A stretch of DNA of 64,000 nt from an uncultured Gammaproteobacteria bacterium (GTDB lineage Bacteria > Patescibacteriota > Patescibacteriia > SG8-24). The position numbers and the translations under genes are program-made. The DNA is taken from contig CAZVED010000001.1 in the NCBI GenBank assembly GCA_964626205.1, positions 64,961-128,960 of the forward strand, in the 5' to 3' direction. Positions 215 to 63,357 of this stretch are shown one piece after another (positions within the stretch are counted from its first letter, which is position 1; every line of letters begins with the position of its first letter). The notes under the pieces are model-generated. The model had not been told where the DNA came from. It did no database searches and was given only the letters and a program-made list of their open reading frames with translations.

Positions 215-805
215 CTAGTCGTTACGGAGGGTAAGGGAGGTCCACGCAGGACTGTCGTAGGTCTGTCCGCGGACAGTGACGTCGTTGATAAGGAGCAAGG
301 AGACGCGCGATGCCTGTGTCGGATCAGGGTCATCGTAGCGGAAGACGAGCGCGGCGTTGTTCCTCGTGACGACGCGCGTTCCGGCGAATCGTGCCGACCC
401 GGGAGCGGGGTCCGTGGCGGAGATGACGACATCCGACTCTGACGGATGTCGGGCGAAAGCGATGCGGTCATAGGATGCGGGGATGAGCGCGCCATCGACG
501 TCCGCTGCCGGAAGTTCCAGCACCAGCGTCGTCGCAGAGGTCTCATAGAGCGTGCCGTCGATGGTCGCCGAAGCGAGAATGGCGTTCGCGCCGCGCGCGA
601 GGTCGGAAATGCTCCGTGCCGCGAAGACGGTGCCAGTGTCGGCTTCGATGCGCGCGACCTGCTTGGCGTAGACATCGAACGTCGAGAGGAAGATCTGCGA
701 GATGAGCAACATGATGGTCGTCATCACGGCAAGGACGACGAGCGTTTCCATGAGGGTGACGCCGCGTTCGTCGATGTGTCGTTGTGGTGCCTGGAATCCG
801 CGCAT
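215..805 (-). CDS. type IV pilin-like / pseudopilin (prepilin N-terminal cleavage-methylation motif)
   Basis: N-terminus ...ERGVTLMETLVVLAVMTTIMLL matches G|xTLxE plus a hydrophobic helix. Start codon lies 1 nt after the upstream pilin stop. Composition is normal for this genome, unlike the R-rich antisense frames. Confidence 0.7.
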   Translation of the reverse strand: MRGFQAPQRHIDERGVTLMETLVVLAVMTTIMLLISQIFLSTFDVYAKQVARIEADTGTVFAARSISDLARGANAILASATIDGTLYETSATTLVLELPAADVDGALIPASYDRIAFARHPSESDVVISATDPAPGSARFAGTRVVTRNNAALVFRYDDPDPTQASRVSLLLINDVTVRGQTYDSPAWTSLTLRND

Positions 806-806
806 A

Positions 807-1760
807 TCAGCGGGTGATGAGGGTCGATGCCGACCGCGACTTGGTGAAGAGACCGTCCCGCCAGGTCATGGTTGCGGTCACGGATTTGAGGTAGGCGTCG
901 CCCCCGACGTCCGTGATGGTGAGCGTGCCAGTACCGAGCGGGAGGTCGGCGTAGCTGCGCCGCATCCAGTCCGCCGGGACGGTCCCGACATCGTCGGTAT
1001 CGAAATTCCATACCGTCGTCACCCCGCCTTCTGTCACGACGACGTCGTCGAATGCCATGAGCGCGCCGTTCAGCGCGATGATGCCGATATCGCCGGACGC
1101 GAACGATCCGTCCGCGACCGTCGTGAGCGTGACGCCATCGCGCCGGAGCGTGAAGGAGTTGCTGGACGCGATGATTTGGAGCTCGTACCACGTGCCCGTA
1201 GAATGAGCGACGCTTTGGGACCACAACGTCGTCCGGACACCACCAAGGACGCGGTCCATCGCGATACCGCCGGACGTATACCGGAAGCGGTAGTGGTTCT
1301 CTGCATCACGATAACCGAAGACCACACCCGCACCCCATCCTGCGGGAGAAGAGGAGTCCGCGCGGATGTCTGCCGTGAAAGTGACATTCTCACGGTAATT
1401 GCCAGGGGCAATCATGAGACCTGTTTCCTCGACTGTTGCGGTTTGTGCGGTGCCGATGCGCATCGCCTGCTGTCCTGCGACATCTTGCACCGCCCACCCG
1501 CCGCGCTGGACAGGGGTTCCAAGGAACCGTCCGTCCGTGCGTACGGCTAGTGTTCCGAGCGGGAGGTTCCGTAGCGCTTCAAGTTGTTCCTGCAGAAAAG
1601 CCGCCGCTTGGACCTCATACTGCGTGCGGCGCAGGAAAATGAGACCGGAGATGACGGAGAAATACGTTGCCAAAAGCATCGCGGCGAGGCCGAGGGTAAC
1701 GAGGGTTTCGGCGAGCGTGAAACCGTCTTCGTCGTGGATGGTGCGTCGTATCTGCGGCAT
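807..1760 (-). CDS. type IV pilin-like / pseudopilin (317 aa)
   Basis: N-terminus ...DGFTLAETLVTLGLAAMLL is a prepilin-type motif. ATG at 1760 lies 1 nt after the pilC stop at 1762. Confidence 0.7.
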   Translation of the reverse strand: MPQIRRTIHDEDGFTLAETLVTLGLAAMLLATYFSVISGLIFLRRTQYEVQAAAFLQEQLEALRNLPLGTLAVRTDGRFLGTPVQRGGWAVQDVAGQQAMRIGTAQTATVEETGLMIAPGNYRENVTFTADIRADSSSPAGWGAGVVFGYRDAENHYRFRYTSGGIAMDRVLGGVRTTLWSQSVAHSTGTWYELQIIASSNSFTLRRDGVTLTTVADGSFASGDIGIIALNGALMAFDDVVVTEGGVTTVWNFDTDDVGTVPADWMRRSYADLPLGTGTLTITDVGGDAYLKSVTATMTWRDGLFTKSRSASTLITR

Positions 1761-11967: not shown

Positions 11968-12043
11968 TGGTGCGCCGGCCGGGGATCGAACCCGGGACCA
12001 TCAGCTTAAAAGGCTGTTGCTCTACCGGCTGAGCTACCGGCGC
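11968..12043 (-). tRNA. tRNA-Lys (anticodon UUU)
   Basis: Manual cloverleaf on the reverse complement: acceptor GCGCCGG/CCGGCGC, D-arm GCUC-AGCCGGUA-GAGC, anticodon loop CUUUUAA, T-arm CCGGG-UUCGAUC-CCCGG, encoded CCA. Confidence 0.9.
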
Positions 12044-23288: not shown

Positions 23289-23342
23289 GGGTAGCTCCTT
23301 GGTAAAAGGACCACGCTCCGGGGACGACCCGCGGAACAAGCG

Positions 23343-23371
23343 ACCATAGCGGAGAAACGCCTTTTCGTCAA
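23343..23371 (-). promoter_or_regulatory. sigma70-like promoter TTGACG-N17-TATGGT for the helicase gene
   Basis: Read on the minus strand, about 48 nt upstream of the GTG start. Confidence 0.45.
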
Positions 23372-23399
23372 TCAGAAAACCCGCTTATCTTCACGACGG

Positions 23400-23640
23400 T
23401 TTTTTGCTCGCAATATCCTATTTTAGGCGGCCCGTCCGACAGCCCGTCCTGACGCACGATTGCCCGGGCGGGTCTAAAGAAATACCCGCCCTTTGCTCGG
23501 TGATCTTCGTGCGTCAGGCCGTCCTGCCGGACGGGCCGCCAGAGCACCCGCGTGGAATGTGTCATTGCGAGCGGGCTGTACTCAGCCCCGAAGGCCGGGC
23601 TATCATCCTGATTCAATGTAGCCCGGCATCCCGCCCTTAG
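23400..23640. repeat. compound palindromic intergenic element(s), TGTCATTGCGAG family
   Basis: Nested inverted repeats: ggcggcccgtccg...cggacgggccgcc (13 bp), cctgacgcacga...tcgtgcgtcagg (12 bp), inner gggcgggt...acccgccc. Contains tgtgtcattgcgag and gtactcagccccgaag, which recur in the element at 30356-30461. Confidence 0.5.
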
Positions 23641-23719
23641 GTGGGTCAATCCCGAGCAGGAATAGGAGTGCGTCATGGCGCGTTCAGGGTTTGTCGTTCC
23701 GCGACCCACCCGCTCCGCG

Positions 23720-25202: not shown

Positions 25203-25266
25203 GAGAACCTCCAAATGTAGAGAACGGGTTGGACAAGGGAAAATCCCTCATCTATCGACAACGATG

Positions 25267-25295
25267 AGCATAGCATAAATACGTCTTTTTGTCAA
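25267..25295 (-). promoter_or_regulatory. promoter TTGACA-N17-TATGCT (extended TGCTATGCT)
   Basis: Consensus -35 and spacing, upstream of the 25202 start. Confidence 0.5.
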
Positions 25296-25304
25296 TAATA
25301 GCTG

Positions 25305-29533: not shown

Positions 29534-29578
29534 TGAATGAGCTCCTTCTGGTGGAAAATCCACCGGGGTACAACGATG

Positions 29579-29607
29579 AATGTATCACATTTTGATGCTT
29601 TTGTCAA
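29579..29607 (-). promoter_or_regulatory. promoter TTGACA-N17-TACATT (extended TGaTACATT) for the two-peptide operon
   Basis: Consensus -35 with exact 17-nt spacer on the minus strand. Confidence 0.5.
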
Positions 29608-29702
29608 TACTGACGAGCAAGCTTATGAAAGGCGAATTTGCCTCATTTAAGGCTGGTATGGCAGGGGATACCCTGAAGTTTCGTGAGTAGTGCCAGAGAC
29701 TC

Positions 29703-29737: not shown

Positions 29738-30178
29738 TCAGGCTCGGAACGCACCTTTGACGAAAGACTCCTCCTGGGAAACGTTATGGAGGGGGACCCC
29801 ATCGGACGCATCGCTTCGGCGAAATGTCCATGGTGATGTGGAACGAGGAAGAGCCCGGTTTCGACTGGGGTCTTCCACGAAGAAGCATCGTTGACCAGAG
29901 CAGCGCTTCGGCGCCCACCTCCGGTTTCCGTCTCCATAACGTTCCTCATGAGTTCGGGCCACGAAAGCCTGTCGGTTGATGTCTGCCATTTGGCCGCCGT
30001 CATTTGGACTTATGAGGATTATTTTTCCACCGCGCCCTGCCACCCACCCCGCTCCCTCATCCTCTCGAAGGCTCTCATGATGGCGGTGCTGACCCCACCG
30101 CGTACCGTGAGATCCTCATCGCTTAGCTGCCGGCCAGGTAGCATCCCCTCCGTTGTCTAGACGGGGGGTGATTTTTTA
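29738..30178 (+). ncRNA. candidate structured non-coding RNA (~440 nt), identity unassigned
   Basis: Promoter-to-terminator unit without a credible ORF. UUCG tetraloop hairpins (catcgc-UUCG-gcgaaa, gcgc-UUCG-gcgc). Terminator stem ccccuccgu/acgggggg at 30145-30168 followed by U6. Confidence 0.45.
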
Positions 30179-30203: not shown

Positions 30204-30274
30204 GGTCTGTCAGAGAGGGCTTTCGGCAAGGCGGCTCCAACTTTAGCCTCGCCGAAAGCCCTCTCCGACAGACC
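30204..30274. repeat. long palindromic element (24-bp arms, 23/24 matched)
   Basis: ggtctgtcagagagggctttcggc ... gccgaaagccctctccgacagacc with a 23-nt loop. Confidence 0.6.
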
Positions 30275-30355
30275 ACACGAGGCCGCGTCAACTTGATGTC
30301 TCATCCCGTTCCGGTCAGATACAGAGCGAGGATTTTTGCGGACTGCCGTCCCTAC

Positions 30356-30461
30356 TGTGTCATTGCGAGGGTCGACGTACTCGTCGGCCCGAAGCAATCC
30401 CGTTTCGAGATTGCTCGGGATTGCTTCGGGGTCTGAGTACAGACCCACTCGCAATGACACA
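30356..30461. repeat. compound palindromic element with TGTGTCATTGCGAG core
   Basis: Outer 14-bp perfect IR tgtgtcattgcgag/ctcgcaatgacaca. Inner IR gcccgaagcaatcccg/cgggattgcttcgggg (16 bp) and gtactc/gagtac. Shares core and sub-arms with 23560-23600. Confidence 0.6.
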
Positions 30462-30472
30462 ATAAAATAGGC

Positions 30473-34776: not shown

Positions 34777-34852
34777 GCCACCTTAGCTCAGCTGGTAGAG
34801 CAACACTTTTGTAAAGTGAAGGTCCCGGGTTCGATCCCCGGAGGTGGCTCCA
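34777..34852 (+). tRNA. tRNA-Thr (anticodon UGU)
   Basis: Cloverleaf: acceptor GCCACCU/AGGUGGC, anticodon loop UUUGUAA, T-arm CCGGG-UUCGAUC-CCCGG, CCA encoded. Confidence 0.88.
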
Positions 34853-34902
34853 CTCACGTCCGCGATAAGGTCGACGACAATCGAAAACGGCATTTTTCAC
34901 GT

Positions 34903-34987
34903 GGGCCGGTACCCAAGCGGTCAAAGGGGGCGGACTGTAAATCCGCTGGCATCGCCTTCGAAGGTTCGAATCCTTCCCGTCCCACCA
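34903..34987 (+). tRNA. tRNA-Tyr (anticodon GUA), class II with long variable arm
   Basis: Anticodon stem-loop GCGGA-CUGUAAA-UCCGC, long variable arm, T-arm GAAGG-UUCGAAU-CCUUC, CCA encoded. One C:U mismatch in the acceptor stem. Confidence 0.85.
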
Positions 34988-34990
34988 CAT

Positions 34991-35066
34991 GCCGACGTAG
35001 CTCAGTTGGTAGAGCATCTCCATGGTAAGGAGAAGGTCACCGGTTCGATTCCGGTCGTCGGCTCCA
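34991..35066 (+). tRNA. tRNA-Thr (anticodon GGU)
   Basis: Acceptor GCCGACG/CGUCGGC, anticodon stem-loop UCUCC-AUGGUAA-GGAGA, T-arm ACCGG-UUCGAUU-CCGGU, CCA encoded. Confidence 0.88.
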
Positions 35067-37912: not shown

Positions 37913-38176
37913 TTAAGCTCGAATAAGGTCGAGTTTCTCCGCGCGTCTCAGATTTTTGATCTTGCGTTCAAGCTTGAGTGCAGCACTTTTGGTCTTGCAG
38001 CGTTTCTTCCAGAGCAGGCAGACTGGACCGCGACCACGCGTGTACTTCGCCCCGGTACCAGCATCGTGCTTCGCGAGGCGTTTGGTGACGTCTGTGGTGA
38101 TGCCGGTGTAGAGCGATCCGTCACCGCAACGGATGATGTAGACGTGCCAAGAGGGCATATGTGGGAAGTATAGCAT
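37913..38176 (-). CDS. GIY-YIG nuclease-domain protein (UPF0213/YhbQ-like, 87 aa)
   Basis: HVYIIRCGDGSLYTGITTDVTKRLAKHDAG...GAKYTRGRGP matches the GIY-...-YIG...R...E core. Confidence 0.7.
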   Translation of the reverse strand: MLYFPHMPSWHVYIIRCGDGSLYTGITTDVTKRLAKHDAGTGAKYTRGRGPVCLLWKKRCKTKSAALKLERKIKNLRRAEKLDLIRA

Positions 38177-38181
38177 GGTGC

Positions 38182-38372
38182 GGCAGGCTGGCGCTGGGTT
38201 GGCCGGACACGAAGGCTCACACGGGAAGCATTATCAGGACGTCGGATCTTACGCATGTCTCCTTGCATTGACCCCGTCGCGCAGGGCCCGACGACGGGGT
38301 CAGTACCCGTTGCTCAACCATGAGCCATTTCCCGGCTCACCCAGTGTCCGGCCAACCCAGCGCCAGCCTGCC
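38182..38372. repeat. perfect 29-bp inverted repeat flanking a 133-bp core (MITE-like element)
   Basis: ggcaggctggcgctgggttggccggacac (38182-38210) is the exact reverse complement of 38344-38372. The core contains an 11-bp hairpin tgaccccgtcg/cgacggggtca. Begins 6 nt from the GIY-YIG start codon. Confidence 0.7.
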
Positions 38373-38381
38373 GGCTCATGC

Positions 38382-38410
38382 TTGACACCTCCGCTTAATA
38401 TGGCTATAGT
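38382..38410 (+). promoter_or_regulatory. consensus sigma70 promoter TTGACA-N17-TATAGT for typA
   Basis: Exact hexamers with 17-nt spacer, 40 nt upstream of ATG 38450. Abuts the right IR arm. Confidence 0.6.
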
Positions 38411-38449
38411 ACGCCGGTAGCTAAACCGCCGCTTAAGCGGCATTTTTAT

Positions 38450-63248: not shown

Positions 63249-63307
63249 GGAAACCTCCCGAAACGGAAGCGGCTGACCCTGCCGAAGGGGTTCATGATGA
63301 ACGAGGG

Positions 63308-63336
63308 AGCATAGCAGAAAAACAGCCCTTTGTCAA
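63308..63336 (-). promoter_or_regulatory. promoter TTGACA-N17-TATGCT (extended TGCTATGCT)
   Basis: Consensus -35 and 17-nt spacer on the minus strand, upstream of the lipoprotein gene. Confidence 0.5.
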
Positions 63337-63357
63337 CGGTGGCCGGCCTTATTGAGC

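What the first reader, a model, noticed from the sequence alone, without database searches (positions are those of the whole stretch)
23400..23640. Family of long palindromic intergenic elements sharing a TGTGTCATTGCGAG core (also at 30204-30461)
- **Shared core.** Two unlinked intergenic regions carry nested near-perfect inverted repeats built around the same sequence. tgtgtcattgcgag occurs at 23547-23560 and at 30356-30369, and its exact reverse complement ctcgcaatgacaca occurs at 30448-30461.
- **Shared inner arm.** gtactcagccccgaag at about 23578 matches the reverse complement of gcttcggggtctgagtac at about 30424, with two mismatches.
- **Scale of structure.** The 30356-30461 copy can fold into a bulged stem of roughly 45 bp. 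A separate 24-bp-arm palindrome lies at 30204-30274. The 23400-23530 copy has 13-bp and 12-bp perfect outer arms enclosing an inner hairpin.
- **Interpretation.** A 14-mer recurring in 64 kb, embedded in complex palindromes, points to a repeat family (REP/MITE-like, or a protein/RNA recognition site). It is not a terminator; there are no U-tracts.
Basis: seen in the sequence. Interest (0 to 1): 0.6.

Follow-up and report, generated by a model that had tools for sequence, protein, structure and literature searches.

The report
Hairpin repeats recognised by Ssn nucleases
The repeated TGTGTCATTGCGAG core belongs to a very widespread family of small DNA hairpin repeats that, in other genomes, flank a tiny GIY-YIG nuclease gene (the recently described Ssn single-strand DNA nucleases); this window holds three copies without the nuclease gene, so it is a new member of a known kind rather than a new system.

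Summary
The shared core is real. TGTGTCATTGCGAG occurs at 23558-23571(+), not at 23547-23560 as written, and at 30356-30369(+) and 30448-30461(-).

It is the 5' end of a ~45-nt unit:
- an unpaired YGTC tag;
- a 5-bp basal stem ATTGC/GCAAT;
- a GA/GAA purine loop;
- a freely covarying distal hairpin;
- a C-rich tail.

The window holds one inverted doublet (30356-30461) and one unit split by a 53-nt insertion (23558-23658).

The same unit occurs in many phyla and on at least 120 viral contigs. In 68 of 70 metagenome loci picked only by protein similarity, it lies within 150 nt of a ~95-aa GIY-YIG gene. That protein is 49% identical to a Neisseria gonorrhoeae ORF of the SsnA family.

This matches two published descriptions: CGTC-tagged REPs (Di Nocera 2013) and Ssn-related motifs, or SRM (Chenal 2025). 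In the second, SsnA cuts single-stranded DNA a few bases upstream of the tag.

This sequence class does not match the published SRM search pattern, and the window has no ssnA gene.

The other palindromes (23426-23540, 30204-30274) are unrelated and unique. A close relative lacks both elements upstream of glyS.

The parts
30356..30402 (+). Left unit of the inverted doublet. It comprises the tag TGTC (30358-30361), basal stem ATTGC (30362-30366) pairing with GCAAT (30394-30398), a GA / GAA purine internal loop, a distal hairpin GGTCGACG-TACT-CGTCGGCC (30370-30389, with one G:T pair on this strand), an invariant C (30399) and the tail CCG.
   Evidence: The DNA fold gives -12.6 kcal/mol, z -3.5, with tag and tail unpaired.
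30403..30415 (.). 13-nt spacer between the two units of the doublet.
   Evidence: Spacers of inverted pairs elsewhere run from 7 to 338 nt, mostly 15-60.
30416..30461 (-). Right unit of the doublet, in inverted orientation with its tag at the outer end. It has the same tag, basal stem and purine loop. The distal hairpin is GGGTCTG-TACT-CAGACCC, which shows compensatory changes relative to the left unit.
   Evidence: The DNA fold gives -9.9 kcal/mol, z -4.4.
23558..23593 (+). 5' part of a single unit: the tag, ATTGC, GAG, the distal hairpin GGGCTG-TACT-CAGCCC, and CGAAG.
   Evidence: It aligns with both doublet units up to CGAAG.
23594..23646 (.). A 53-nt stretch forming two small hairpins (GCCGGGCTA...TAGCCCGGC and CCCGCC...GGTGGG). 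It separates CGAAG from the rest of the unit. This is inferred to be an insertion into the unit.
   Evidence: The fold is (third sequence). No other copy was found anywhere. That it is an insertion is an inference from the displaced tail.
23647..23658 (+). Displaced 3' end of the single unit. CAATCCCGAGCA is identical, 12 of 12 bases, to the sequence that follows CGAAG in the right unit of the doublet.
   Evidence: Read directly. A 12-mer match within about 100 nt is expected by chance roughly 6e-6 times (my own arithmetic).

Best explanation
The elements are Ssn-related motifs (SRM), the same superfamily as the CGTC-tagged REPs and the Neisseria NTS/dRS3 repeats. They are short directional DNA hairpins and the recognition sites of small single-domain GIY-YIG nucleases (Ssn, cd10448).

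Shown for homologues (PMC11893778):
- The nuclease binds the hairpin only when the tag-bearing strand is single-stranded.
- It nicks a few nucleotides 5' of the HGTC tag.
- It acts on neither dsDNA, RNA nor the opposite strand.

Shown here:
- This particular sequence class brackets ssn genes as inverted units, in the layout unit -> ssn <- unit.
- The commonest arrangement without a gene is the same inverted pair with a short spacer.

Inferred:
- The doublet upstream of glyS and the split unit next to the helicase gene are gene-less derivatives, or relics, of such cassettes.
- They arrived by insertion or recombination into intergenic DNA.
- If a cognate Ssn exists elsewhere in this Patescibacteria genome, they would be cut at about 30352-30356 on the + strand, about 30463-30467 on the - strand, and about 23553-23557 on the + strand, whenever those strands are single-stranded (replication, repair or incoming DNA).
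For: Distribution:
- Even the GTACTC-loop form is present in 116 or more genome contigs. These come from Patescibacteria, Gammaproteobacteria, Bacteroidota, Chloroflexota and others.

Conservation outside the search pattern:
- GT precedes the pattern in 106 of 122 matches. CAATC follows in 93 of those 106.

Structure:
- Among 76 distinct distal-hairpin arm pairs there are 278 Watson-Crick pairs. Permuted controls give 135 +/- 9.
- G:T pairs outnumber A:C pairs 83 to 43 on the tag strand, p = 5e-4. This fits one functional single strand.

Association with the gene:
- 88 of 119 adjacent unit pairs are inverted with the tags outward.
- In loci chosen only by GIY-YIG protein similarity, unit density is 9.0 per kb within 150 nt of the gene and 0.32 per kb beyond 500 nt.
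- 68 of 70 such loci have a unit on at least one side, and 60 of 70 on both sides.
- The right unit often starts directly after the stop codon.
- The cassette protein is 49% identical (E 1e-31) to the ORF in N. gonorrhoeae that tblastn found with the cassette protein and that I take to be its SsnA homologue.
- In N. gonorrhoeae, A. lipoferum, S. meliloti, N. aromaticivorans and P. agardhii, the homologous gene is flanked by that species' own YGTC-tagged hairpins.
- In Syntrophomonadaceae arrays, the spacer of gene-less doublets is homologous to the sequence flanking the ORF.

Presence or absence:
- A relative with 91% identical GlyRS has about 55 nt where the window has about 290 nt carrying the doublet.

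Literature: PMC3733652 and PMC11893778.
Against: - No ssnA-type gene lies in the 64-kb window. The only GIY-YIG ORF (37913-38158, - strand) is of the UPF0213 type. It is 30% identical to the N. gonorrhoeae SsnA-family ORF and is not flanked by these units.
- The rest of the source genome could not be read. Whether the copies are live substrates or orphans is therefore unknown.
- The units do not match the published degenerate SRM search pattern.
- No clean empty site or target-site duplication was seen. How the copies spread remains unshown.
- No Ssn of this sequence class has been tested biochemically, as far as the papers read show.
Confidence: 0.85

Rival explanations
1. Classical REP/REPIN elements, mobilised by a RAYT (Y1 HUH transposase) acting on hairpins in the lagging-strand template.
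For: - The inverted doublets with a short spacer look like REPINs or BIMEs.
- The units lie between genes.
- The hairpin is conserved by structure.
Against: - The tag is YGTC, not GTAG.
- The gene bracketed by the units is a GIY-YIG nuclease in 60 of 70 loci.
- No other protein family recurred among 479 ORFs next to units; the largest cluster had 6 members.
- Di Nocera et al. found no RAYT flanked by CGTC repeats (PMC3733652).
Confidence: 0.04
2. RNA-level elements: transcript-stabilising or processing hairpins, or a cis-regulator of glyS or the helicase gene.
For: - The units fold strongly as RNA.
- In some phage contigs a unit sits just before a Shine-Dalgarno sequence.
- G:U pairs exceed A:C pairs on one strand.
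Against: - There is no orientation preference relative to flanking genes: 71 co-oriented against 76 antisense.
- No Rfam family matched, even at E = 10.
- A close relative lacks the doublet while keeping the glyS-proximal sequence.
- SsnA does not bind RNA (PMC11893778).
- G:T wobble is equally expected in a single-stranded DNA hairpin.
Confidence: 0.06
3. A MITE derived from a DDE-type insertion sequence, with TGTGTCATTGCGAG as the terminal inverted repeat.
For: - The outer 14 nt of the doublet form a perfect inverted repeat.
- In one MAG, inverted units enclose about 190 nt of conserved AT-rich DNA.
Against: - No target-site duplication is seen at 26 cassette ends.
- Single units of 24-45 nt are common and are complete structural modules.
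- No transposase family recurs next to the units.
- The enclosed gene is a 95-aa nuclease.
Confidence: 0.03
4. Chance recurrence of a 14-mer within GC-rich palindromic spacers.
For: With up to 2 mismatches, 2 of 100 shuffles reached 3 matches.
Against: - All three matches are exact.
- The gapped two-part pattern is never seen in shuffles.
- The same unit recurs in hundreds of unrelated contigs, with conserved flanking bases.
Confidence: 0.01

Closest known systems
Ssn-related motifs (SRM) / Neisseria NTS repeats with SsnA nucleases (Chenal et al., Nat Commun 2025, PMC11893778)
   Same: - A directional hairpin with an unpaired HGTC tag 5' of a palindrome that starts AT and ends AT, followed by a C.
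- Length of 20-50 nt.
- Flanks a ~95-aa single-domain GIY-YIG gene on both sides as inverted copies.
- The cassette protein here is 49% identical to the N. gonorrhoeae SsnA-family ORF.
   Different: - The stem is not one continuous 7-9-bp helix. It is a 5-bp basal stem, then a GA/GAA purine loop, then a second helix of free sequence and length.
- The published search pattern does not match it.
- In the sample seen here, the hosts are mainly Patescibacteria, Cyanobacteria, Chloroflexota, Desulfobacterota and phage-like contigs, rather than Pseudomonadota.
- The window copies are not next to any ssn gene.
CGTC-tagged REPs (Di Nocera, De Gregorio, Rocco, BMC Genomics 2013, PMC3733652)
   Same: - A CGTC or TGTC tag at one end.
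- A stem beginning with A-T and T-A pairs.
- A short C-rich tail.
- Mostly inverted dimers, lying between genes.
- Reported as lacking a dedicated transposase.
   Different: - The described families have 8-9-bp stems and 4-5-nt loops. This class has an interrupted stem with a nested hairpin.
- The tail in the window is CCC(G) rather than CCA.
- Their host list did not include Patescibacteria.
GTAG REPs / REPINs with RAYT transposases
   Same: - Short hairpin repeats between genes, often as inverted doublets.
- A single dedicated enzyme gene is flanked by the repeats.
- The enzyme recognises single-stranded DNA hairpins.
   Different: - The tag differs (GTAG).
- The enzyme fold and chemistry differ: an HUH/Y1 enzyme with a covalent intermediate, against a GIY-YIG hydrolytic nuclease.
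- The two are not homologous.
IS200/IS605 subterminal hairpins and MITEs
   Same: - Hairpin ends recognised on one strand.
- Small non-autonomous derivatives.
   Different: - No Y1 transposase or TnpB.
- No conserved cleavage tetranucleotide pairing.
- No target-site duplication as in DDE-type MITEs.

Membership tests
Ssn-related motif (SRM/NTS) repeats | Conserved unpaired HGTC tag immediately 5' of the palindrome, which gives the repeat an orientation. | tested here: met
   All three window copies have TGTC. Across matches, G and T before the pattern are 98% and 97% conserved although they were not searched for. GT precedes 106 of 122 matches.
Ssn-related motif (SRM/NTS) repeats | Semi-palindrome able to form a hairpin as single-stranded DNA. 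| tested here: met
   DNA folds of the two full units leave the tag and tail unpaired. The distal helix covaries: 278 Watson-Crick pairs against 135 +/- 9 when permuted.
Ssn-related motif (SRM/NTS) repeats | A cytosine directly after the palindrome. This was the most critical base for binding in Nm SsnA. | tested here: met
   The window has GCAAT-C in both full units. C is found at that free position in 109 of 122 matches.
Ssn-related motif (SRM/NTS) repeats | Match to the published degenerate search sequence HGTCWYN(0-2)YYVSBRHN(0-5)WNVSBRGN(0-2)RNCYNB. | tested here: not met
   There are 0 matches in the window. Neither the window units nor the canonical 24- and 30-nt forms match. The Neisseria and Azospirillum repeats do match. 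This pattern is a search tool, not a biological definition.
Ssn-related motif (SRM/NTS) repeats | Repeats flank a cd10448-type single-domain GIY-YIG gene (NTS-ssnA-NTS). | tested here: met
   This holds for the sequence class: 68 of 70 loci have a unit within 150 nt and 60 of 70 have one on both sides, with 28-fold local enrichment. Homology to the N. gonorrhoeae SsnA-family ORF has E 1e-31. It does not hold inside the window, which has no ssnA.
Ssn-related motif (SRM/NTS) repeats | Bound and cut by the cognate Ssn only as single-stranded DNA, a few nt upstream of the tag, on one strand only. | not testable with these tools
   This needs biochemistry. It has been shown for Nm, Ne, Nw and Wolbachia homologues only (PMC11893778).
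Ssn-related motif (SRM/NTS) repeats | Many copies per genome, enriched over shuffled genomes, together with an ssn gene in the same genome. | tested here: inconclusive
   There are 3 units in 64 kb. The source contig (143 kb, NCBI) and the rest of the genome could not be fetched.
CGTC-tagged REPs (Di Nocera 2013) | CGTC/TGTC tag, a stem whose first two pairs are A-T and T-A, and a short unpaired tail. | tested here: met
   The units read TGTC-ATTGC...GCAAT-CCC.
CGTC-tagged REPs (Di Nocera 2013) | A continuous stem of 8-9 bp with a loop of 4-5 nt (families CGTC-1 to -4). | tested here: not met
   The units have a 5-bp basal stem, a GA/GAA internal loop, and a second helix of 6-9 bp with a TACT loop.
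CGTC-tagged REPs (Di Nocera 2013) | Predominantly organised as inverted dimers. | tested here: met
   88 of 119 adjacent pairs are inverted with tags outward. The window doublet has this form.
GTAG REP / REPIN-RAYT | A GTAG tag and a flanked RAYT gene. | tested here: not met
   The tag is YGTC. The flanked gene is a GIY-YIG nuclease. No recurrent transposase-like cluster appeared among neighbouring ORFs. No HMM search for Y1 transposases was run.
DDE-type MITE | Terminal inverted repeats plus a target-site duplication. | tested here: not met
   The outer ends are inverted repeats. No duplication is seen at 26 cassette boundaries or at the window doublet.
Intrinsic terminator or curated RNA family | A U-tract after the stem, fixed polarity relative to genes, or an Rfam match. 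| tested here: not met

The most novel reading that the evidence does not exclude
The CATTGCGAG...GAAGCAATC units define a separate, very abundant Ssn specificity class.
- Recognition would be two-part: the tag, the 5-bp stem and a sheared G-A platform are fixed, while the distal helix is free.
- The class is missed by the published SRM search pattern.
- It is dominant in Patescibacteria, Cyanobacteria, Chloroflexota and on phage-like contigs.
- The unit-ssn-unit cassette would be an active IS-like selfish element, with the gene-less doublets as its miniature derivatives.

Orphan, co-oriented units on phage contigs, and units in DNA-scavenging Patescibacteria, would then mark a single-strand DNA restriction or conflict system that acts on incoming or replicating DNA.
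Probability: 0.25. Interest if true: 0.55.

Novelty: new member of a known kind. Interest (0 to 1): 0.3.

Why it matters
For this window, it removes a puzzle. The 'complex palindromes' upstream of glyS and next to the helicase gene are not regulators of those genes. They are copies of a known class of nuclease-recognition hairpins, sitting beside unrelated single-copy palindromes.

More broadly, three points may be useful to people who work on Ssn nucleases as single-strand DNA tools or on REP evolution:
- The published SRM search pattern misses a large class that spans many phyla.
- That class has a distinctive interrupted stem.
- It is common in candidate-phyla-radiation bacteria and on viral contigs.

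It also supports, in a further SRM sequence class, the answer that the 2025 Ssn paper gave to the 2013 question of which enzyme goes with the CGTC-tagged REPs.

Tried and rejected
- **Rfam.** Searches at gathering threshold and at E = 10 found only tRNAs and spurious miRNA-precursor or mraW matches to the other palindromes.
- **Sequence strings in papers.** Full-text searches for the core sequence found only primers.
- **An RNA motif.** I first suspected one (k-turn-like, or a ribozyme). I dropped this for lack of polarity relative to genes.
- **Neighbouring ORFs.** Clustering the ORFs next to units gave no dominant family, because the small nuclease genes are rare next to any single unit. The link appeared only when I looked for ORFs lying between two units.
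- **Elhai's small dispersed repeats.** That paper (PMC2527708) is not held.
- **Reaching the source genome.** Six exact-protein look-ups failed. I had spent the single genome-contig scan on the GTACTC-loop pattern.
- **The typA locus in a relative.** That contig ends 103 nt upstream of typA, so the 38172-38382 palindrome could not be compared.
- **The other three palindromes and the 53-nt insertion.** BLAST against all held sequence found no further copies.
- **A possible relic at 23407-23417.** The sequence CTCGCAATATC is at chance level: 26 matches in the window against 28 expected.

Full report
**1. The observation**

The 14-mer TGTGTCATTGCGAG is present exactly three times: at 23558-23571(+), 30356-30369(+) and 30448-30461(-).

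A two-part pattern, CATTGCGAG-N5-35-GAAGCAATC, occurs twice in the window, at 30361-30399(+) and 30419-30456(-). It never occurred in 100 dinucleotide-preserving shuffles. All three copies share the loop-proximal sequence GTACTC.

The other two palindromes named in the finding are real. One lies at 23426-23540 with 34-nt arms at 88% complementarity. The other lies at 30204-30274 with 29-nt arms at 93%. Neither contains the core. Neither has another copy in the window or in about 2.5 Mb of fetched loci. They are neighbours of the family, not members.

**2. Anatomy of the unit**

Each unit reads 5'-(Y)GTC | ATTGC | GA | G-[variable arm]-loop-[variable arm]-C | GAA | GCAAT | C-Y-C.

Folded as single-stranded DNA, the two full window units show:
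- the TGTC tag unpaired;
- a 5-bp basal stem ATTGC/GCAAT;
- a purine-rich internal loop, GA opposite GAA;
- a distal hairpin closed by a TACT loop;
- an unpaired C-rich tail.

The fold energies are -12.6 and -9.9 kcal/mol, with z-scores of -3.5 and -4.4.

The doublet at 30356-30461 is two such units in inverted orientation, with tags outward and a 13-nt spacer. On either strand it folds as a branched structure, at about -45 kcal/mol as DNA and z about -12.

The copy at 23558 matches the doublet units through CGAAG (23593) and then diverges. The 12-mer CAATCCCGAGCA, which follows CGAAG in the right doublet unit, reappears at 23647-23658. I therefore infer that this is a complete unit split by a 53-nt insertion that forms two small hairpins.

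**3. Distribution**

- The GTACTC-loop form hit at least 116 genome contigs. These came from Patescibacteria, Gammaproteobacteria, Bacteroidota, Chloroflexota and others, with a few chance matches inside genes.
- A 36-nt canonical form matches plasmids of Methylosinus, Methylocystis, Nostocales, Novosphingobium, Halomonas and Legionella. None of these sites is annotated.
- Bases outside the search patterns are conserved. G and T before the pattern are 98% and 97% conserved, preceded by Y. With a pattern that ended at CGAAG, 93 of the 106 matches preceded by GT continue with CAATC. Only 2 of the 16 matches without GT do so.

**4. Structure and strand**

- The distal helix has 219 distinct sequences and is mostly Watson-Crick paired.
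- In the GTACTC class, 76 distinct arm pairs give 278 Watson-Crick pairs. Permuting the arms gives 135 +/- 9, with 3-4 different pair types at each of the first five positions.
- About a third of the units repeat the GAG/CGA module next to the basal stem, which would give tandem G-A pairs.
- G:T pairs exceed A:C pairs 83 to 43 on the tag strand, p = 5e-4. This points to one functional single strand.
- Units show no preference for the sense or antisense strand of flanking genes, 71 against 76. This argues against a cis-acting RNA.
- Of 119 adjacent unit pairs, 88 are inverted with tags outward, 20 are tandem and 11 are divergent.

**5. The partner gene**

Looking for ORFs enclosed by two units turned up small GIY-YIG ORFs in L134 and L224. 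More were found by tblastn.

- The protein has at least 7,995 relatives at E <= 1e-5. They are about 95 aa long, carry PF01541, and are about 70% identical across cyanobacteria, Desulfobacterota, Chloroflexota, Firmicutes and KSB1.
- I fetched 80 metagenome and 4 viral loci chosen only by similarity to this protein.
- Units occur at 9.0 per kb within 150 nt of the gene and at 0.32 per kb beyond 500 nt.
- Of 70 loci with enough flank, 68 have a unit on at least one side and 60 on both.
- In 35 loci the nearest units are in the canonical arrangement, unit(+) - gene - unit(-).
- The right unit begins 0-8 nt after the stop codon in most clean cases. The sequence outside the tags is unrelated between loci, and no target-site duplication is seen.
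- In one Syntrophomonadaceae lineage the gene lies inside long arrays of doublets. The spacer of the gene-less doublets is homologous to the sequence that flanks the ORF.
- The partner unit in that lineage has the basal stem ATCGC/GCGAT, a compensatory change.

In cultured organisms the homologous gene is flanked by that species' own YGTC-tagged hairpins:

| Organism | Flanking repeat |
|---|---|
| N. gonorrhoeae | CGTCATTCCCGCGCAGGCGGGAATC |
| A. lipoferum (between sufB and sufC) | CGTCATCCCCGCGAAGGCGGGGATCC |
| S. meliloti | CGTCATCCTCGGGCTTGACCCGAGGATCC |
| N. aromaticivorans | CGTCGCCCCGTGCTTGACACGGGGC |
| P. agardhii | TGTCATTCTGAGTGAAACGAAGAATC |

**6. What is already known**

Di Nocera et al. 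2013 (PMC3733652) described CGTC-tagged REPs. Their features are:
- a CGTC or TGTC tag;
- stems starting with A-T and T-A pairs;
- a CCA tail;
- mostly inverted dimers;
- hosts in five phyla;
- identity with Neisseria dRS3 and Rickettsia RPE-4/6;
- apparently no dedicated transposase.

Chenal et al. 2025 (PMC11893778) showed several things.
- Such repeats (NTS, generalised as Ssn-related motifs, SRM) flank ssnA, a 94-aa single-domain GIY-YIG gene (cd10448). One or more SRM is found near 71% of homologues, and on both sides of 42%.
- SsnA binds the repeat only as single-stranded DNA of the tag-bearing strand. [quoted passage not shown]
- It acts on neither dsDNA, RNA nor the reverse strand.
- The three bases upstream of the palindrome matter most for cutting. 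The C just after the palindrome matters most for binding.
- In N. meningitidis the system lowers transformation by NTS-containing DNA.
- The NTS-ssnA-NTS layout looks like an insertion sequence, and the authors suggest domestication.

The cassette protein found here is 49% identical (E 1e-31) to the N. gonorrhoeae ORF that tblastn found with the cassette protein. I take that ORF to be the gonococcal SsnA homologue. My independent finding therefore rediscovers this system for a different sequence class.

**7. Membership**

The tag, the hairpin, the 3' C, the inverted-pair layout and the link to an Ssn-family gene are all met (see the membership table).

Two formal criteria are not met.
- The published degenerate SRM search pattern matches neither the window units nor the canonical CATTGCGAG forms. 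It does match the Neisseria and Azospirillum repeats.
- The stem is interrupted rather than a continuous 8-9 bp.

I treat the first as a limit of a search tool. I treat the second as a structural variation within the family. Hence the verdict 'new member of a known kind'.

**8. Context in the window**

- The source is a Patescibacteria bacterium, probably near Uhrbacteria. TypA and GlyRS are identical to proteins on a 143,069-bp NCBI contig, and the nearest named relatives are Patescibacteria and Uhrbacteria.
- The doublet lies between a + strand terminator-like hairpin (30146-30178) and the glyS start.
- A relative with 91% identical GlyRS and the same gene order keeps the terminator and the glyS-proximal sequence. 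It has about 55 nt where the window has about 290 nt carrying both the 30204 palindrome and the doublet.
- Neither that contig nor a 77% relative contains any unit. The elements are therefore dispensable and variable, as expected of inserted repeats.
- The split unit lies in the spacer next to the promoter-like site of the DEAH helicase gene.
- No ssnA is present in the 64 kb. The only GIY-YIG ORF (37913-38158, - strand) is of the UPF0213 type. It matches PDB 1zg2 at 5.9e-19, is 30% identical to the N. gonorrhoeae SsnA-family ORF, and is not flanked by these units.

**9. Mechanism, with its status**

- Shown by others for homologues: recognition of single-stranded DNA on one strand only, and cutting upstream of the tag.
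- Shown here: this sequence class is the flanking repeat of one Ssn subclade. Its distal helix is under structural constraint only. Gene-less inverted pairs are the commonest form. The window copies are absent from a close relative.
- Inferred: the window copies are gene-less derivatives or relics. They would be cut near 30352-30356(+), 30463-30467(-) and 23553-23557(+) if a cognate enzyme is encoded elsewhere in the genome.
- Not known: how copies spread (transposition, or recombination between units), and what the system does in Patescibacteria.

**10. Verdict**

This is a real and correctly noticed repeat, and it belongs to a family described in 2013 and explained in 2025. Interest is modest. 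The useful residue is threefold: a large class spanning many phyla escapes the published search pattern, it has an interrupted stem, and it is common in candidate-phyla-radiation genomes and on viral contigs.

Noticed in passing
window 37913-38158 (-) and 38172-38382: A small UPF0213-type GIY-YIG ORF (81-87 aa; PDB 1zg2 match at 5.9e-19) lies 14 nt from a large palindrome with 39-nt arms at 92% complementarity and 133 nt between them. The palindrome sits in the spacer before typA. It has no CATTGCGAG core and no other copy. This may be a second nuclease-plus-hairpin pairing, or it may be coincidence.
   Followed up: partly
L338:1-103 (relative of window 38347-38449): The contig of a 92%-identical relative ends 103 nt upstream of typA. 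That is where the window carries the large palindrome, which suggests an assembly break at a repeat or palindrome.
   Followed up: no
window 23426-23540: A palindrome with 34-nt arms and an inner hairpin. It folds at -80 to -86 kcal/mol as RNA. It is unique in all sequence held. Its weak below-threshold Rfam mraW match (27 bits against a gathering score of 50) looks like a generic hairpin hit. Its function is unknown.
   Followed up: partly
window 30204-30274: A palindrome with 29-nt arms. Its two mismatches are G:U pairs on the - strand only (-65.8 against -55.6 kcal/mol). It is absent from the 91% relative and unique in all sequence held.
   Followed up: partly
window 23334-23373, 25258-25297, 29570-29609, 63299-63338: Four copies of a ~40-nt motif (...CATAGC..AAA.AC...CTTTTTGTCAA..) lie at the starts of - strand genes. 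The copy at 23371-23343 reads as TTGACG-17-TATGGT on the - strand. This is probably a shared promoter architecture.
   Followed up: no
window 23407-23417 (-): GATATTGCGAG, a 9-of-11 match to the unit's 5' end, lies in the same spacer as the split unit and points the other way. It could be a decayed partner unit, but it is at chance level for the window: 26 matches against 28 expected.
   Followed up: yes
L001-L120 (viral contigs), e.g. L015, L038, L003: Unpaired units on phage-like contigs tend to lie on one strand of a contig (0:7, 0:4, 3:0, 3:0, 4:0 and so on). They may be either sense or antisense to the genes. Only 4 viral contigs encode the nuclease. Orientation may follow a replication or packaging strand.
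   Followed up: partly
L249, L271, L326, L329 (metagenome and Syntrophomonadaceae loci): Long arrays of 13-27 units with periods of about 110-130 nt surround the nuclease gene. A second gene copy sits two doublets away in L329. These arrays resemble BIME or NIME clusters.
   Followed up: partly
L334:470-1086 (Azospirillum lipoferum 4B plasmid AZO_p3): The GIY-YIG cassette, with a hairpin doublet on each side, sits between sufB and sufC. In other words, it lies inside an operon spacer.
   Followed up: no
window 215-805 (-) and 807-1760 (-): Two ORFs start with prepilin-like N-termini (...GVTLMETLVV......GFTLAETLVT...). This suggests type IV pilus or pseudopilin genes. It is possibly relevant because SsnA acts on DNA taken up by competent cells. 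The ORFs were not tested against family libraries.
   Followed up: no
window 11971-12043 (-), 34777-35063 (+): Four tRNA genes, three of them in a cluster. These are the only Rfam matches above threshold in the window.
   Followed up: no
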